Of a stretch of DNA of 64,000 bases, positions 10,332-61,489 are shown one piece after another; the stretch's first letter is position 1, and every line of letters begins with the position of its first letter. The notes beneath the pieces are model-generated. The model saw only the letters and a program-made list of their open reading frames with translations. It did no database searches and was not told the DNA's origin. A program made the position numbers and the translations under genes. The DNA comes from a virus: IMG/VR virus record IMGVR_UViG_3300028196_000007, positions 22,140 to 86,139 of that record; one strand, 5' to 3'.

Positions 10332-10427
10332 AAAGGCTCTTGGTTGGTTAAATAAATCTTTACCATAGTGAGGATTTTTAACTCTTAACATTCTGCACCA
10401 CGTGAAGGTGGCCTTTGTTAGCAGAAC
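10332..10427 (-). ncRNA. HDV/CPEB3-like self-cleaving ribozyme
   Basis: P1 GUUCUGC/GCAGAAU with G1-U wobble; P2 AAAGGCC/G(A)GCCUUU; P3 ACC/GGU; L3 UUCACGU; GU after P1; long P4; J4/2 CCAA. Confidence 0.85.
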
Positions 10428-10435
10428 TAGGTGCT

Positions 10436-10633
10436 TTACAACACCTTGATTACATCAGATTTTTTAACTTCAACAACCTCAAATTCTACTGAGTCATTGG
10501 CAAAGTCTTTATTTACTATTGCTTCTGCATCCGTAACTGATACCGCTGAAACTAAATAAGCTTCTTTTTTCCAAGTAACCTTAGTTCCGTTGTCGGTCGC
10601 TACTTTAACTCTTGCTAAATAATACATATCCAT
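10436..10633 (-). CDS. DUF4494-like small protein
   Basis: YYLARVK...KEAYLVSAVSVTDAEA...FEVVEVKKSDVIKV pattern resembles the Bacteroidota/phage DUF4494 family. Confidence 0.65.
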   Translation of the reverse strand: MDMYYLARVKVATDNGTKVTWKKEAYLVSAVSVTDAEAIVNKDFANDSVEFEVVEVKKSDVIKVL

Positions 10634-10644
10634 AATTTTCTCCT

Positions 10645-11184
10645 TTATTTTCTTATATATAATTTTTGATTTCTAATATACATTTTACCTGTAGGTATTT
10701 CTGTTAACTCTCTACCTAGCATATCGTATATTTTATTACTCATACAACAACTACATCCCATTTGACATTCATATTCTAATATTGCAGTTGGTACTCCAAT
10801 GTTGCTCATTAACATCCAAGCTTGTCCGTCCCATACTTGATTGAAACAACAACTCATTGTGTCAACATAACCTAATGAATCTGTTAAAGTATAAGATATA
10901 CACGTTGTTATTGTATCATAAGGCATTCCTGTGGTTGGATTGTAATTGTATACTAAGTGTGTACAAGGACCACTAAAACAACTGTCTTGACCCAACATTG
11001 TTTGACCACCATAAGTTACAGCATACAAAGGTGCCATAGTAGGCAAACTATTTCCAGTTACTGGTATTGCTATTTCTAATTGATATTGTGAGCCTATTGT
11101 GTAAGTCATGTTTGAATCACATAAGGTTTGTGCTTGTGTTTGTAGTCCAAGCGAAACTAATAATACTGCTAATAATCTTTTCAT
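10645..11184 (-). CDS. Secreted Cys-rich protein with T9SS C-terminal-domain-like tail
   Basis: Signal peptide MKRLLAVLLVSLGLQTQA|Q; C-terminus KIYDMLGRELTEIPTGKMYIRNQKLYIRK. Confidence 0.6.
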   Translation of the reverse strand: MKRLLAVLLVSLGLQTQAQTLCDSNMTYTIGSQYQLEIAIPVTGNSLPTMAPLYAVTYGGQTMLGQDSCFSGPCTHLVYNYNPTTGMPYDTITTCISYTLTDSLGYVDTMSCCFNQVWDGQAWMLMSNIGVPTAILEYECQMGCSCCMSNKIYDMLGRELTEIPTGKMYIRNQKLYIRK

Positions 11185-11228
11185 ATTTTATTCTTTTATT
11201 CTTTTTAAATTAATTTAATATAATAATA

Positions 11229-11448
11229 TCTATGCGGTTGGATTCGAACCAACAGTTTTTCAAGTACAAATTTGTAGGCTAAAAACTTAAAAAAAGCCTT
11301 ATAGTTCCTGTACTCTTGAGGAACTCGGGGTCGTTGTTAGCGCCACCATAAACCTTAGTAGCTACAAGTAGCTTATAAAGGTTGCGTATCTCCAAGCTAA
11401 TATATTCATGTTTTATATACATGTCAATTAGCATTCCGCCACGCATAG
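11229..11448 (-). ncRNA. 220-nt tRNA-like RNA with enlarged D loop and multi-hairpin central region
   Basis: Acceptor CUAUGCG/CGCAUAG plus discriminator A; U8G9; D stem GCG/CGC; perfect T arm GUUGG-UUCGAAU-CCAAC; no canonical anticodon arm. Confidence 0.8.
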
Positions 11449-11454
11449 TTATTA

Positions 11455-12582
11455 TTATCCTATTGGCACATCATCATTTCCGATTTCAATATCATCGATA
11501 CCTAAATCATCTGTTTTGTATGCCATAATCAATGTTTCGCAAATCTTGTTATATATTCTCTCTTTCCTTTCGGGGTCAGAAAGTACTAACTTTTCAAAGT
11601 CTTTTGATAAAAACTTTATTTCTTTGCCTGTTACATCATCAGTATAAGTATACCAAGAACCGCCTTGTTTAATAAGGCTGTAGTCTTTTAACACCTGAAG
11701 CCAACCACCAAAGTCATCGATGCCTGATTCGAAATAAATATTAAATTCTGCTTCTCGTAAAGGTGGTCCCATTCTGTTCTTGACAACCTTTGCCTTTGTT
11801 TTAATACCTATAACTTGTTCTTTACCGTTAACCTTAGCTTTAATCTGTCCTGCTGCTTTCAATCTTAATCTACAACTAGCATGAAACTGGATTGCTTTAC
11901 CGCCTGATGTAGTATATTTGTCACCAAACATAACACCTAGCTTTTCTCTTAGCTGATTTGTAAATATCAAACATACTCTTTCTCTACCAATTAACTGAGT
12001 AATTTTTCTCATACCTTTTGACAACACAATTGCTTTTGACGTAGCCCAACCTTCTTTGTCATAGTCTTGAGCCTGTTCAATTTTTGTTGTTGCTGCAGCT
12101 ACTGAGTCTACTGCAATTGATACCAATCTATTTTTGTCTGATTCTTTTACTTTTAAGATTATATTTTCAATAACCTCAAATATATCTTCTACAGCTTCGA
12201 GTTGAATATACAACATCTTAGAAATGTCCATTCCTATAGCAGTTAAAAACTCCTCATTCATGGCATTTTCTGTATCTATGTATACTGCAAGGCCTCCTTG
12301 CTTTTGCGTGTTAGCGAGTAGATGAGCTGCAATGAGTGATTTACCAGAAGCTTCCATTCCAGTAATTTCTGTAATTCTACCTACCGGTAAACCACCATTA
12401 GCTCTATTTGAAATAGCTAGGTCAAGTAAAGATGAACCTGTACTTATCCATTCAGTTAAGTCAGTTGGTGTTTCATCTGCACCATCTAGAAAGTATGCAA
12501 CTTTCATTCCTTTAAACTGTTTGTTTAATGAGTCAGCTAATACGCTGGCTAATTCATCTCGTTTTGTCTTATCCTTTGCCAT
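11455..12582 (-). CDS. recA: RecA/UvsX recombinase
   Basis: ISTGS, GGLPVGRITEITGMEASGKS, YIDTENA, VDSVAA, FTNQLR, TSGGKA, KNRMGPP. Confidence 0.95.
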   Translation of the reverse strand: MAKDKTKRDELASVLADSLNKQFKGMKVAYFLDGADETPTDLTEWISTGSSLLDLAISNRANGGLPVGRITEITGMEASGKSLIAAHLLANTQKQGGLAVYIDTENAMNEEFLTAIGMDISKMLYIQLEAVEDIFEVIENIILKVKESDKNRLVSIAVDSVAAATTKIEQAQDYDKEGWATSKAIVLSKGMRKITQLIGRERVCLIFTNQLREKLGVMFGDKYTTSGGKAIQFHASCRLRLKAAGQIKAKVNGKEQVIGIKTKAKVVKNRMGPPLREAEFNIYFESGIDDFGGWLQVLKDYSLIKQGGSWYTYTDDVTGKEIKFLSKDFEKLVLSDPERKERIYNKICETLIMAYKTDDLGIDDIEIGNDDVPIG

Positions 12583-12594
12583 GTTAATTTCCTC

Positions 12595-13347
12595 TTACTC
12601 GTTAAATAAATCATCAAATGCTGATTCAACATCTTTTGTTGATGATACGCCTGTTGCTGCAGCTGTTGATGTTTGAGCTGGAGCTGCTTCACCACCATCT
12701 GGGTTCAACCATTCTTCCAATACAGCTTTTAAGTCATCGTATGAATTTTTTCTAAAAATTTCAAAGATTTCTTTTTGTCCACTAACAATTTTATCTGCAA
12801 TGTTTGCATCTGTTGTTGCTGGTGTCTGATTTGGTTTTACACGGATTGCAGTTTTAGGATAGTTCCCTACTCCTTCTGCTGGTGTGAATTCTACAGAGAT
12901 ATCTCTACCAGATTTTACATCTGTGATATCACCATAGTCTGGGTCTGAAATAAATCCTAGCAATTCAGTATATACCTGCTTACCAAATCCCCAAAATTTA
13001 ACACCATCAGATTCTTCTCCTCTAACAATAACTGGCACATAACATCTCATTTTCGGTGATAGTTTTCTTGCCAATTTAAAGTCATCAGATTTACCTGTTG
13101 CTCTAAGCTTTTGTGCAAACTCTTCTACTGGGTCTGCTTCGCCATAAGTTACTGGTGATAGGTAATTCTTTTTACCTAAGTCATAGTGAAAATACATTTC
13201 AATAAACGGATTTTCTTTGTTGTGTTGGTAAGGTACAATTCTTACTTGGTTCTTACCTGGTTCAGGTTTCCACAAGTTGTCTTGTCTTCCTGTTTGTGTT
13301 TGTAAGTTATTTAACTTACGTCGGATTGCTTCTAAATCAATAGCCAT
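12595..13347 (-). CDS. Single-stranded DNA-binding protein (gp32-like)
   Basis: LWKPEPG, VRIVP, GVKFWGFGKQVY, DITD..GRD, acidic tail AFDDLFNE; adjacent to RecA. Confidence 0.85.
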   Translation of the reverse strand: MAIDLEAIRRKLNNLQTQTGRQDNLWKPEPGKNQVRIVPYQHNKENPFIEMYFHYDLGKKNYLSPVTYGEADPVEEFAQKLRATGKSDDFKLARKLSPKMRCYVPVIVRGEESDGVKFWGFGKQVYTELLGFISDPDYGDITDVKSGRDISVEFTPAEGVGNYPKTAIRVKPNQTPATTDANIADKIVSGQKEIFEIFRKNSYDDLKAVLEEWLNPDGGEAAPAQTSTAAATGVSSTKDVESAFDDLFNE

Positions 13348-13378
13348 TTTTTTCTCCTGTTTTTAATTATTATTTAGT

Positions 13379-13408
13379 TAATATAACAAAAATATTCCAC
13401 ATTATAAA
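13379..13408 (-). promoter_or_regulatory. Class B promoter motif (degenerate box)
   Basis: TTGTTATATTA conserved; upstream box only partly conserved. Confidence 0.5.
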
Positions 13409-60253: not shown

Positions 60254-61489
60254 TTAAAAGGTTCCTCCATCAATAGGAAGTACACTACCTGTAAAAGTAG
60301 GATATCCTCCTGTAACTCTTAATTGATCTGCATATAAATCACCTTGTATTACTACATTACCAGCGGCATCTAATTCAAAATCATTGTTTGTCGTGAAACC
60401 TATTGAGCTATGTATTGAAAATTTACTTTGACTTTCATCAACACCCATTACCCATCTTTTTTCTACTTCCTGATTATAGAATATTATTTCTCTATCTGAA
60501 TCATCGTAAGTGTGTCCTACATACATTTTTCCGTGAGTATGAAGTGAAGCGTCATAATCTACTTTTGAACTTGAAAGTATTAAGCCTCCTTCATGCAATT
60601 GCATTGTCTCACTTATAGGTTCTCCAGCAACTGAACTACCAATAGCAAAATTCATTGAGCCTTTTATTGCAGAGCCATCATTAGCAACTCCGTTTACAAC
60701 CCCTTGTATTTGCATTGCTGTAGCATCTCTTCTTTCACTGATTGAAAGGTCTTCCCACGTAATAGTACCTAGTGCGTCTCCTACCGATGCTGTTGAAGGT
60801 GCATTGAATGTTCCTGGTGTGTATGACATTACTATTTCTGACCCAGACGTTTCTGTTACAGTTTCCCCTCCAGTAGCAATGCCTTTAAATTTCTTTGTTG
60901 TAAACTTACCGTTTGTAAATTCTAATTCTTTACTTCCGTCATCTGATCTAAACTTTATACTGTCAGCTTTAAAATCTATGTCGTCTTTAGGATTCTCTGT
61001 TTTAAATCCTAGTTTACCTGAGCGTGAAACATACATAAAAGTTTTTTCATGCTGAGTAAAATTGCGAGTTGGGTTGCTCTCTAAAGGCTTATATATACTC
61101 CAGTCTCCATCATCGCTAAACCCTAGTGATAGTGAAGAAGTTATAGCTCTAGGAAATACAGATGTTGTTGCATTGTGCGTAACGTGTCTGTAGAATCTTG
61201 AATGTGATGCATAGCCATTTGATTCTGTGACAACACCTATCATCTCAAACGAACCAGTAGTTGTAGTATTACCATAGTGGTGTAATGATTGAGATACTGA
61301 TATAGATACAAATGAACTGGTAAAATAAGAAACAGCTGCATATGCAGATGAAGATACATTGTTTGCTGGATTTGAACCGGACCATATTGGATGGTTTGAC
61401 AAACTCGATGTCGTGCTTCCTGTTGCAATACTTAAACTTGTTGTAGTAAATAATATAGAACCTGTATTGAATATTATAGTATGCGGCAT
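60254..61489 (-). CDS. Tail-associated protein ending IDGGTF
   Basis: 411 aa, Ser/Thr/Gly-rich; coupled to the upstream fibre gene. Confidence 0.7.
   Translation of the reverse strand: MPHTIIFNTGSILFTTTSLSIATGSTTSSLSNHPIWSGSNPANNVSSSAYAAVSYFTSSFVSISVSQSLHHYGNTTTTGSFEMIGVVTESNGYASHSRFYRHVTHNATTSVFPRAITSSLSLGFSDDGDWSIYKPLESNPTRNFTQHEKTFMYVSRSGKLGFKTENPKDDIDFKADSIKFRSDDGSKELEFTNGKFTTKKFKGIATGGETVTETSGSEIVMSYTPGTFNAPSTASVGDALGTITWEDLSISERRDATAMQIQGVVNGVANDGSAIKGSMNFAIGSSVAGEPISETMQLHEGGLILSSSKVDYDASLHTHGKMYVGHTYDDSDREIIFYNQEVEKRWVMGVDESQSKFSIHSSIGFTTNNDFELDAAGNVVIQGDLYADQLRVTGGYPTFTGSVLPIDGGTF

What the first reader, a model, noticed from the sequence alone, without database searches (positions are those of the whole stretch)
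11229..11448. 220-nt tRNA-like RNA: intact elbow and acceptor, giant D loop, no anticodon arm
It starts 6 nt after the recA stop. It has a perfect 7-bp acceptor (CUAUGCG/CGCAUAG, discriminator A, no encoded CCA), a class II-like UG-GCGGAAU...UGGAGAUACGC D arm and a perfect T arm. A 37-nt hairpin (GCUAAU/AUUAGC, CAUG/CAUG) is inserted in the D loop. About 130 nt of helices (AACCUU/AAGGUU topped by AGCUA/UAGCU; AGUUCCU/AGGAACU; AGGCU/AGCCU; a possible loop pseudoknot CAAGAGUAC:GUACUUG) replace the anticodon and variable arms. It is not a normal tRNA, not an alanine-identity tmRNA (no G3-U), and shows no obvious group I intron. Hypotheses: RNase P/Z processing punctuation, decoy for anticodon nucleases or tRNA-binding defence proteins, a ribosome-binding or tmRNA-like RNA (an internal frame reads ANNDPEF..., weak evidence), or a multiply interrupted tRNA.
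Basis: partly seen in the sequence, partly recalled or inferred. Interest (0 to 1): 0.85.

Follow-up and report, generated by a model that had tools for sequence, protein, structure and literature searches.

The report
Knotted tRNA-shaped RNA of marine phages
Right behind the recA gene this uncultured marine phage encodes a 220-base RNA that keeps the upper body of a leucine tRNA but carries two conserved RNA knots in place of a codon-reading part; it belongs to a widespread, uncatalogued phage RNA family whose job is still unknown.

Summary
On the minus strand at 11229-11448, 6 nt after the recA stop, lies a 220-nt RNA with a 7-bp closing stem, a D arm, a T arm and no anticodon loop. ARAGORN and Rfam 15 do not recognise it.

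It is a family, not a decayed tRNA. I collected 56 distinct full-length relatives from uncultured marine phages, always just behind recA or an ATP-dependent DNA ligase gene.

Covariation supports every core helix and two pseudoknots. In the 3' domain 97.9% of cells pair against 78.9% in shuffles. H3 has double changes in 7 of 7 pairs, PK1 in 5 of 6, PK2 in 2 of 7.

The D arm equals that of E. coli tRNA-Leu with a 37-nt hairpin inserted. Discriminator, G3:U70, CCA and the internal ORF are not conserved, so a tmRNA-like or charged role is unlikely.

Best reading (0.5): a tRNA-Leu-derived chassis that recruits host tRNA-processing enzymes to cut the operon after recA and releases a stable RNA whose knotted domain binds an unknown partner.

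Earlier notes of this scan describe tRNA-Leu 'shell' RNAs in other phages. By sequence, nothing like this element was noted outside its own genome.

The parts
11450..11458 (-). P0, 5' strand of an outer helix (AUAAUAAUA); overlaps the recA stop codon
   Evidence: Pairs with 11220-11228 (9 bp). Over 52 members the flank helix averages 7.3 bp against 4.3 in shuffled flanks, with different sequences in different lineages. About 5 members lack it.
11442..11448 (-). P1 (acceptor-like stem), 5' strand CUAUGCG
   Evidence: 7 of 7 pairs in 43 of 52 members; 23 distinct 5' strands; 6 of 7 pairs with changes on both sides.
11437..11439 (-). D stem, 5' strand GCG, preceded by U8 G9
   Evidence: 99.4% paired; 3 of 3 pairs covary (GCG/CGC, GUG/CAC, AUG/CAU, GCA/UGC).
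11396..11432 (-). 37-nt hairpin inserted in the D loop; its loop is A-rich (UAUAUAAAA)
   Evidence: The inner stem covaries in 4 of 4 pairs (helix 4). The loop motif AUAUAAAA / CAAAA is kept across subfamilies.
11384..11395 (-). 3' part of the D loop (UUGGAGAUA, holding the G18 G19 equivalents) and D stem 3' strand CGC
   Evidence: GG and flanking A are invariant columns in 52 sequences. With the 5' part it matches the D arm of E. coli tRNA-Leu(CAG).
11351..11383 (-). Arm at the anticodon-arm position (AACCUU...AAGGUU topped by AGCUA/UAGCU); no anticodon loop
   Evidence: Folds as a hairpin of variable length in nearly all members. It is 5 bp plus a UACG/UGCG/UAAG tetraloop in L007, L121, L204 and L022-25.
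11327..11346 (-). H2 hairpin with conserved loop UA(A/G)YN
   Evidence: The two pairs next to the loop are paired in 52 and 51 of 53 members, the outer one in 31 of 53; all 3 pairs show changes on both sides (helix 1). The loop is conserved.
11303..11325 (-). H3 hairpin AGUUCCU / AGGAACU with loop CAAGAGUAC
   Evidence: 98.9% paired; 7 of 7 pairs with changes on both sides.
11310..11315 (-). PK1, 5' strand (GAGUAC, in the H3 loop)
   Evidence: Pairs with 11262-11267. 100% paired in 53 sequences; 5 of 6 pairs with changes on both sides.
11276..11299 (-). H4 hairpin AGGCU / AGCCU with loop UUUUUUAAGUUUUU
   Evidence: A stem of 3-5 bp in 49 of 49 members; 18 distinct stems.
11281..11287 (-). PK2, 5' strand (AGUUUUU, 3' half of the H4 loop)
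   Evidence: Pairs with 11254-11260. 99.5% paired. Two pairs have compensatory changes in the diverged members L030, L033, L034 and L042.
11262..11267 (-). PK1, 3' strand (GUACUU)
   Evidence: Variants by subfamily: GUACUU, GCACUU, GUGCUU, GUUUGU, GUUCGU, GUAGAU, GUAAUC, AUAGUU. Each matches its own H3 loop.
11254..11260 (-). PK2, 3' strand (AAAAACU), directly 5' of the T arm
   Evidence: A scan that did not require this tract found it in 21 of 21 family loci.
11237..11253 (-). T arm GUUGG-UUCGAAU-CCAAC
   Evidence: 100% paired; 2 of 5 pairs covary. It is the only part that Rfam's tRNA model matches (13.8 bits against a cut-off of 29).
11230..11236 (-). P1, 3' strand CGCAUAG
   Evidence: RNA contigs of two studies end at 11233 and 11235.
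11229..11229 (-). Base at the discriminator position (A); no CCA follows
   Evidence: Not conserved: A 24, C 16, U 11, G 1 of 52.
11220..11228 (-). P0, 3' strand (UAUUAUUAU)
11455..12582 (-). recA, the gene directly upstream on the same strand
   Evidence: Pfam RecA 2e-58. One 2382-nt metatranscriptome contig runs through recA and the RNA.

Best explanation
The element is one member of a conserved family of phage RNAs, 194-265 nt long, built on the chassis of a class II (leucine-type) tRNA.

**Anatomy**
- It keeps the closing stem, the T arm, the D arm and the canonical core positions: U8, A14, A15 with U48, G18 G19, and the T loop UUCGAAU.
- The anticodon arm has degenerated to a variable hairpin.
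- A conserved hairpin has been added in the D loop.
- The variable-arm position has grown into a domain of about 100 nt: hairpin H2 plus two interlocked H-type pseudoknots (H3 with PK1, H4 with PK2).

**Proposed working**
1. The RNA is transcribed together with the upstream recA gene (the ligase gene in other lineages).
2. Its tRNA shape recruits the host's tRNA-processing enzymes: RNase P at the 5' border and a 3' endo- or exonuclease. RNase III may cut the outer flank helix where there is one.
3. This separates the recA message from the variable accessory genes downstream.
4. It also releases a compact, nuclease-resistant RNA whose knotted domain and conserved loops are the working part, binding a partner not yet known.

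**Shown:** the family, the structure, the context, the tRNA-Leu-type D arm, and presence in RNA libraries.
**Inferred:** cleavage by RNase P or Z, stability, and action in trans.
For: **Family and structure**
- 56 distinct full-length members (52, 4 more).
- Covariation of P1, D stem, H3, PK1, PK2 and T arm. An independent RNAalifold run on 18 sequences recovers P1, D stem, H2, H3 and T arm.
- G-U pairs are frequent (for example GU in 35 of 53 at one PK1 pair), so selection acts on RNA of this strand.

**tRNA-Leu chassis**
- The window reads UGGCGGAAU[37 nt]UUGGAGAUACGC. E. coli tRNA-Leu(CAG) reads UGGCGGAAUUGGUAGACGC.

**Context**
- The RNA starts 6 nt after the recA stop in the window. Subfamily A lies behind recA in 26 complete loci, plus one locus cut by its contig end.
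- Subfamilies B and C lie behind an ATP-dependent DNA ligase in 5 of 5 tested loci.
- The downstream genes vary.
- C and D members are followed within about 10-20 nt by genuine tRNAs.
- In relatives, look-alikes of this window's candidate HDV-like ribozyme sit in the same post-recA slot. That candidate sits 8 nt after the stop of the ORF at the other end of the accessory cassette.

**Expression**
- Four marine metatranscriptomes hold the stretch.
- One contig spans recA and the RNA.
- Contigs of two studies end at 11233 and 11235, one of them with an Illumina adapter attached. A third ends at 11438, 10 nt inside the 5' border.

**More than a cleavage signal**
- The most conserved columns outside the tRNA core lie in the H4 loop, the A tract, the H2 loop and the D-insert loop.
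Against: - No end mapping exists. Contigs cannot show ends, strand or abundance, and DNA carry-over in the RNA libraries is not excluded.
- The outer helix P0, continuous with P1 in subfamily C, would hinder RNase P and leaves no free 3' end.
- The base at +1, the base at -1 and the discriminator are not conserved.
- No partner protein is identified. SmpB, TROVE/Ro, CCA-adding enzyme and RNase III genes were not found in the record, which is estimated 50% complete.
- The invariance of the T loop and of AAAAACUG is partly forced by my search patterns. The four diverged members came only from recA synteny.
- A purely cis-acting role would explain the fixed place behind a stop codon equally well.
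Confidence: 0.5

Rival explanations
1. It is only a cis-acting element. A tRNA-shaped punctuation mark and/or end-protecting structure defines and stabilises the 3' end of the recA (or ligase) message or the 5' end of the downstream message. The excised RNA has no function of its own, and the knots only make the fold rigid.
For: - It starts 6 nt behind the recA stop in the window, and ~8-20 nt (by eye) behind the ligase stop in B and C, on the same strand.
- P0 overlaps the stop codon.
- The same slot in relatives holds ribozyme look-alikes or tRNAs.
- Plant mitochondrial t-elements work this way (PMC1920247, abstract read).
Against: - RNase P or Z recognition needs only the closing stem, the T arm and the elbow.
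- That does not explain loop sequences and two pseudoknots held across lineages whose stems have diverged completely (mean column identity 49%).
- Nor does it explain a conserved insertion in the D loop.
Confidence: 0.25
2. It is a decoy or sponge. As a tRNA look-alike it occupies a host protein that binds the tRNA body: a defence nuclease or toxin, a modification enzyme, or RNase P itself.
For: - The tRNA core and elbow are intact without any decoding ability.
- It is phage-only: 0 true matches in one genome for each of 185,579 prokaryote species with a 23-base pattern.
- Subfamily A contigs hold no ordinary tRNA (0 in 4 contigs).
Against: - It has no anticodon loop, and the known tRNA-targeting defence nucleases that I recall mostly cut there.
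- No candidate target was identified.
- No link to any defence or counter-defence gene was seen.
Confidence: 0.12
3. It is a charged, ribosome-directed RNA: a tmRNA-like or leucine-accepting tRNA mimic that receives CCA, is aminoacylated and enters the ribosome.
For: - tRNA-Leu-type D arm, A at the discriminator position in the window, and an A15-U48 type core.
- From recall: LeuRS does not read the anticodon.
- Pseudoknots beside a tRNA-like domain recall tmRNA.
Against: - The discriminator is A in only 24 of 52 members. G3:U70 occurs in 1 of 52. CCA is never encoded.
- P0 pairs the would-be 3' end in most members and runs on from P1 without a break in subfamily C.
- The ORF is not conserved.
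- Rfam's tmRNA model matches only the T arm (14 bits against a cut-off of 47). ARAGORN finds no tmRNA.
- No SmpB in 6 fragmentary records.
Confidence: 0.06
4. It is a decayed tRNA, an integration scar, a chance fold, or a small protein gene (the 55-codon ORF 11279-11446).
For: ARAGORN and Rfam do not call it. A 55-aa ORF overlaps it.
Against: - 56 distinct relatives keep every helix through compensatory changes.
- No integrase context was seen.
- The ORF is cut to 24-31 codons in the nearest relatives and lacks its ATG in 33 of 52 members.
Confidence: 0.02

Closest known systems
Bacterial class II tRNA-Leu (Rfam RF00005)
   Same: - 7-bp closing stem and canonical T arm.
- 3-bp D stem with U8 G9.
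- D-loop sequence GAAU..UGG.AGA as in E. coli tRNA-Leu(CAG).
- The extra domain sits where class II tRNAs carry their long variable arm.
   Different: - No anticodon loop.
- A 37-nt hairpin inside the D loop.
- About 100 nt with two pseudoknots in place of a short variable arm.
- The discriminator is not conserved and no CCA is encoded.
- In most members the flanks pair beyond the stem.
- The tRNA model scores 13.8 bits against a cut-off of 29.
Phage T4 RNA C (species 1 RNA, rnaC) and RNA D
   Same: - Phage-encoded stable RNAs of unknown function (PMC9697503, passages read).
- rnaC ends in a T arm and an imperfect closing stem and has no anticodon.
- It lies beside tRNA genes, as subfamilies C and D do here.
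   Different: - No detectable homology. Family profiles hit the T4 region only at T arms, with E 0.14-0.83.
- rnaC is 139 nt, has no D arm with GG, and lacks the H2/PK1/PK2 domain.
tRNA-like processing signals: plant mitochondrial t-elements (PMC1920247, abstract read); MALAT1 mascRNA (recalled)
   Same: A tRNA-shaped structure next to a coding region that is thought to direct RNase P or RNase Z cuts and so define mRNA ends.
   Different: As I recall them, those are minimal tRNA look-alikes without a conserved extra domain. Here, half of the conserved positions lie outside what a processing signal needs.
tmRNA (RF00023)
   Same: A tRNA-like domain combined with pseudoknots; no anticodon.
   Different: - It has a true D stem and an arm at the anticodon position.
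- No G3:U70 and no conserved tag frame.
- No long helix joining the 5' and 3' halves next to the T arm.
- About 220 nt.
- No SmpB gene seen.
Bacterial and phage Y RNA-like YrlA (from recall)
   Same: A non-decoding tRNA mimic with conserved D and T arms and no free CCA end.
   Different: - The topology is reversed. As I recall it, in YrlA the RNA ends lie on the anticodon side and the acceptor is closed by a loop.
- No Ro/TROVE gene in this record.
- No Rfam hit.
'tRNA-Leu shell' RNAs noted earlier in this scan (e1-5631648, e1-5697611, e1-5784588, e1-5326165)
   Same: Phage-only RNAs that keep the top half of a leucine tRNA and carry structured cargo in place of the decoding part. They are absent from Rfam.
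   Different: - Here the closing stem varies freely.
- The cargo sits at the variable-arm position and in the D loop.
- The cargo itself is conserved across lineages, not swapped.
- No look-alike by sequence was on record outside this genome.
- I did not see their sequences.

Membership tests
tRNA (RF00005) | Cloverleaf scored by the family model or by ARAGORN | tested here: not met
   ARAGORN finds 0 genes in 64 kb. Rfam finds 0 at gathering score. Only the T arm matches, 13.8 bits against a cut-off of 29.
tRNA (RF00005) | 7-bp acceptor stem stacked on a 5-bp T stem with loop UUCGAAU | tested here: met
   43 of 52 members have 7 of 7 pairs.
tRNA (RF00005) | D arm with the G18 G19 elbow contacts | tested here: met
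   The D stem is 99.4% paired and GG is invariant. The D loop is interrupted by a hairpin.
tRNA (RF00005) | Anticodon stem with a 7-nt loop | tested here: not met
   The arm varies in length. Several members have tetraloops.
tRNA (RF00005) | CCA end and aminoacylation | not testable with these tools
   CCA is not encoded in 52 of 52 members. Only contigs, not raw reads, were available.
tmRNA (RF00023) | G3:U70 alanine identity pair | tested here: not met
   G-U at 3:70 in 1 of 52 members.
tmRNA (RF00023) | Conserved tag reading frame with resume and stop codons | tested here: not met
   The ORF is not conserved. Changes follow the helices, not the codons.
tmRNA (RF00023) | Match to the family model or ARAGORN's tmRNA search | tested here: not met
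   T arm only, 14 bits against a cut-off of 47.
tmRNA (RF00023) | SmpB partner | tested here: inconclusive
   0 of 6 phage records hold SmpB, but the records are 23-60% complete and a host SmpB could serve.
YrlA / Y RNA | Ends paired on the anticodon side, closed acceptor, Ro (TROVE) gene nearby (features from recall) | tested here: not met
   The RNA ends lie at the acceptor side. No TROVE in G000. No Rfam hit.
T4 RNA C (species 1) | Sequence homology to T4 rnaC | tested here: not met
   nhmmer with the family profiles gives T-arm hits only, E 0.14-0.83.
tRNA-like processing signal (t-element type) | tRNA-like fold next to a coding region | tested here: met
   6 nt after the recA stop in the window. 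The same arrangement in all 56 members, behind recA or ligase.
tRNA-like processing signal (t-element type) | Transcript ends generated at its borders by RNase P or Z | tested here: inconclusive
   RNA contigs end at 11233, 11235 and 11438, but another contig runs through. Contigs cannot prove ends.
Class II tRNA-Leu descent | Leu-type D arm and an extra domain at the variable-arm position | tested here: met
   D arm compared with E. coli tRNA-Leu(CAG), T4 tRNA-Leu and T4 tRNA-Ser. Only these three reference tRNAs were compared.
Class II tRNA-Leu descent | A73 discriminator (LeuRS identity element, from recall) | tested here: not met
   A in 24 of 52 members.

The most novel reading that the evidence does not exclude
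This is a new class of trans-acting phage RNA. A leucine-tRNA chassis serves as a self-processing, nuclease-resistant carrier for a conserved double-pseudoknot module that binds a host machine (the ribosome, RNase P, a tRNA-handling enzyme or a defence protein) during infection. It is widespread in marine phages of several lineages and is part of a larger, uncatalogued world of phage 'tRNA-shell' RNAs.
Probability: 0.35. Interest if true: 0.85.

Novelty: new variant of a known kind. Interest (0 to 1): 0.7.

Why it matters
- Phage tRNA-shaped RNAs that cannot decode have been known since T4 RNA C, yet no function has been found for them.
- This family offers unusually firm footing. It has dozens of diverged members, a fully covarying structure with two pseudoknots, a clear tRNA-Leu ancestry and a fixed genomic place.
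- If the RNA is cut out by host tRNA enzymes, it is a natural version of the laboratory 'tRNA scaffold' for stable RNA expression.
- It would also be a bacterial-virus counterpart of the tRNA punctuation of organelles.
- If the knotted domain binds a host factor, it would be a new kind of phage takeover or counter-defence RNA in abundant marine phages.
- At the least it is a sizeable structured RNA family that is missing from Rfam 15.

Tried and rejected
**Detectors and catalogues**
- ARAGORN and Rfam gave nothing beyond the T arm.
- blastn of the window element and of subfamily B and C examples against 50,697 isolated phage records found no match. The nearest isolate by RecA is Microcystis phage Mel-JY01 at 54%, so no cultured host system is at hand.

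**Pattern scans that led nowhere**
- The genome-contig scan gave 3 hits, all chance matches in coding sequence.
- The loose pattern returned mostly real tRNAs and no new member.
- A scan for the PK2 module without a T arm returned 41 loci. Seven were known family loci and the other 34 looked like chance AT-rich matches, so there is no sign of the knot domain outside the tRNA chassis at that stringency.
- The second T-arm-like match in the window (61368-61378) lies inside coding sequence.

**Ideas weakened or dropped**
- A U.A-U triple helix formed by the 5' U tract of the H4 loop: subfamily D has no U tract there. RNAalifold offers an alternative pairing of that tract with ACUUGAAAAA, which conflicts with the better supported PK1. 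This stays unresolved.
- A kissing contact between the A-rich D-insert loop and the U-rich H4 loop: I saw no covariation, by eye only.
- A sigma-70 or T4-late-type promoter before subfamilies B and C: the TATAAT-like words overlap the end of the ligase gene. I did not pursue it.

**Partner genes and reads**
- SmpB, TROVE, CCA-adding enzyme and RNase III were not found in fragmentary records.
- Laid contigs showed no joint inside the RNA. Parts without cover mean nothing.

**Papers**
- Searches found no description of this family.
- PMC150520 is not held.

**Rows dropped**
- Family loci cut by contig ends (for example L016, L114, L141, L161, L174) and L222, whose 5' half is unrelated sequence, were left out of the 52 full-length members.
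- The 3'-domain set holds 49, then 53, distinct rows.
- H4 and the outer H2 helix were left out because MAFFT misplaces them. H4 was counted by script.
Full report
**What is there**

The feature lies on the minus strand. The ORF at 11455-12582 (-) is RecA (Pfam 2e-58). Its neighbours are gp32-like, UvdE, HSP20, a 5'-3' exonuclease and a DnaB-like helicase, so this is a phage replication and recombination module. The record is an 86-kb virus contig estimated 50% complete.

The RNA starts 6 nt after the recA stop. ARAGORN finds no tRNA or tmRNA in the 64 kb. Rfam 15 finds nothing at gathering score. With relaxed thresholds only the T arm matches the tRNA model, at 13.8 bits against a cut-off of 29. 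The fold of the single sequence is only moderately better than shuffles (z = -2.68).

**It is a family**

- *Subfamily A.* A scan of IMG/VR for RecA relatives gave 80 loci. The 220-nt element matched 27 of them by blastn. It lies directly behind recA in L001-L027, with L016 cut by its contig end.
They lie directly behind an ATP-dependent DNA ligase gene in 5 of 5 tested loci, with an NT5C-type nucleotidase gene further upstream. Subfamily C is followed by a genuine tRNA-Ala.
- *Subfamilies D and E.* Reading the post-recA spacers that the patterns had missed showed two more diverged forms: L030, L033 and L034 (followed by a tRNA) and L042.

In all I have 56 distinct full-length members of 194-265 nt.

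No member was found among isolated phages by blastn. None was found in one genome for each of 185,579 prokaryote species with a 23-base pattern: the 3 hits are all chance.

**Structure**

On a MAFFT alignment of 52 members the pair counts are as follows:

| Helix | Cells paired | Pairs changed on both sides |
|---|---|---|
| P1 (closing stem) | 94.5% | 6 of 7 |
| D stem | 99.4% | 3 of 3 |
| H3 | 98.7% | 6 of 6 |
| PK1 (H3 loop with a downstream segment) | 100% | 4 of 6 |
| T arm | 100% | 2 of 5 |

The whole-structure covariation score is 0.491, against 0.184 in shuffles (0 of 500 reach it) and at most 0.104 when partners are slid.

On the 3' domain of 53 sequences, which includes the diverged forms:

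- 97.9% of cells pair, against 78.9% in shuffles.
- H3 has changes on both sides in 7 of 7 pairs.
- PK1 has them in 5 of 6 pairs.
- PK2 (the 3' half of the H4 loop with the tract just before the T arm) has them in 2 of 7 pairs. Its variants are AGUUUUU:AAAAACU, AGUGUUU:AAACACU, AGUACUU:AAGUACU and AGUGCUA:AAGCACU.

Further points:

- H4 is a stem of 3-5 bp in 49 of 49 members, with 18 different stems.
- The arm at the anticodon position and H2 fold as two hairpins in nearly all members. In several members the former is only 5 bp plus a tetraloop, so no anticodon can exist.
- RNAalifold, run blind on 18 sequences, recovers P1, the D stem, H2, H3 and the T arm.
- G-U pairs are common, so the selected molecule is RNA of this strand.
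- In most members the flanks pair beyond P1. This outer helix P0 averages 7.3 bp against 4.3 in shuffled flanks and covaries between lineages. It is absent in about 5 of 52 members and in subfamily D. In the window it covers the recA stop codon.
- The conserved unpaired parts are the D-insert loop (AUAUAAAA or CAAAA), the H2 loop (UA-R-Y-N), the A-rich 5' part of the H3 loop and the H4 loop.

One caveat applies. My patterns required the T loop and AAAAACUG. A scan that did not require the A tract still found it in 21 of 21 family loci.

**Ancestry**

The window's D arm reads UGGCGGAAU, then the 37-nt hairpin, then UUGGAGAUACGC. E. coli tRNA-Leu(CAG), fetched from the K-12 record, reads UGGCGGAAUUGGUAGACGC. 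T4 tRNA-Ser and T4 tRNA-Leu differ more.

The extra domain sits where class II tRNAs carry their long variable arm. The base before the T stem is U and the second base after the D stem is A, which fits an A15-U48 pair. I therefore read the RNA as a derivative of a class II leucine tRNA. Only three reference tRNAs were compared.

**What it is not**

- The base at the discriminator position is A in 24, C in 16, U in 11 and G in 1 of 52 members. G3:U70 occurs once. CCA is never encoded.
- The 55-codon ORF is cut to 24-31 codons in the closest relatives, and 33 of 52 members lack its ATG.
- Rfam's tmRNA model sees only the T arm.
- No SmpB gene is found in 6 fragmentary phage records.
- Four metatranscriptomes show no joint inside the RNA.

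A tmRNA-like role, a family-wide aminoacylated role, a spliced tRNA, a protein gene and a decayed scar are therefore all unlikely.

**Context and expression**

- Downstream genes differ between members, while the upstream gene is fixed.
- In relatives that keep recA next to the 5'-3' exonuclease gene there is no RNA and no accessory genes. The RNA therefore marks the start of a variable cassette.
- At the other end of that cassette, 8 nt after the stop of ORF 10436-10633, lies a candidate HDV-like ribozyme. It scores 23 bits on RF02682 against a cut-off of 44, with E = 0.039.
- Look-alikes of that candidate sit directly behind recA in L067, L068, L074, L075, L077 and L079. Their P1 helices differ by compensatory changes, judged by eye. 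None reaches Rfam's gathering score.
- HDV-like ribozymes that process phage tRNAs are in print (PMC10879173; search listing and start of the abstract only).
- The slot behind recA therefore appears to hold interchangeable RNA-cutting devices. This is indirect support for a processing role.
- Thirteen runs hold part of the stretch. Laid on it, one 2382-nt RNA-library contig runs from 11128 to 13400. Contigs of two other studies end at 11233 and 11235, the latter with an Illumina adapter attached. A fourth ends at 11438. These are weak hints of ends near both borders. Contigs cannot show ends or abundance, and DNA carry-over is possible.

**Reading**

I commit to a two-part mechanism at 0.5. 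The tRNA-Leu-derived chassis recruits host tRNA-processing enzymes that cut the transcript behind recA (or ligase) and release a compact stable RNA. The conserved double-pseudoknot domain and loops are its working part and bind an unknown partner.

The rivals are:

- a purely cis-acting punctuation and stability element (0.25);
- a decoy for a tRNA-binding host protein (0.12);
- a charged, tmRNA-like RNA (0.06);
- a scar, a chance fold or a protein gene (0.02).

**Comparison and novelty**

- The closest known kinds are class II tRNA-Leu (the ancestor) and T4 RNA C. T4 RNA C is an analogue of still unknown function (PMC9697503, passages). No homology is detectable.
- tRNA-like processing signals such as plant mitochondrial t-elements (PMC1920247, abstract) are a further analogue.
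- More remote are tmRNA and YrlA.
- Earlier notes of this scan describe tRNA-Leu 'shell' RNAs in other phages. I tested only the tRNA-Leu likeness myself. By sequence, nothing like this element was on record outside its own genome.
- I found no description in four paper searches. The supplements of PMC10690425, which I could not open, may list it.
- I rate it a new variant of a known kind (a non-decoding phage tRNA mimic), with interest 0.7.

Noticed in passing
window 10333-10427 (-): Candidate HDV-like self-cleaving ribozyme that starts 8 nt after the stop of ORF 10436-10633. By eye: P1 GUUCUGC/GCAGAAU with a G-U first pair, P3 CACC/GGUG and P2 AAAGGC/GCCUUU. Rfam RF02682 gives 23 bits against a cut-off of 44, E 0.039.
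   Followed up: partly
L067, L068, L074, L075, L077, L079 (directly after recA); L035 (further downstream, after an inserted ORF): Look-alikes of that ribozyme candidate sit in the slot that the tRNA-like RNA holds in the window. Their P1 differs by compensatory changes (GUUCUAC/GUAGAAU, GUCCUAC/GUAGGAU). In L075 a genuine tRNA-Ala follows. None reaches Rfam's gathering score.
   Followed up: partly
L064, L066, L076, L078, about 10-200 nt after recA: Another conserved, structured-looking spacer (shared words GCUGA(A/U)ACCAAUGU ... a terminator-like hairpin) occupies the post-recA slot in a further lineage. It has no Rfam match at gathering score.
   Followed up: no
L001 against window 11229-12582: L001 encodes a RecA 100% identical to the window's, yet its tRNA-like RNA is only 88% identical. 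The differences sit mostly in helices and are compensated. This suggests either fast evolution of the RNA or a recombination boundary at the recA stop.
   Followed up: no
G001-G004 (contigs of L024, L022, L005, L002) and the window: Subfamily A phage contigs of 50-116 kb hold no ordinary tRNA gene (0 of 4 contigs by RF00005; 0 in the window by ARAGORN). The tRNA-shaped RNA is the only tRNA-like gene seen there.
   Followed up: partly
window 11279-11446 (-): A 55-codon ORF lies wholly inside the RNA. It is not conserved in relatives and would be a false gene call.
   Followed up: yes
subfamily B loci (e.g. L180, L110), flanks of the RNA: The outer helix is made of a conserved inverted repeat, AUGAUAAC(C/U) ... 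(A/G)GUUAUCAU. It is kept even where P1 differs. It could be a protein or RNase III site as well as a helix.
   Followed up: no
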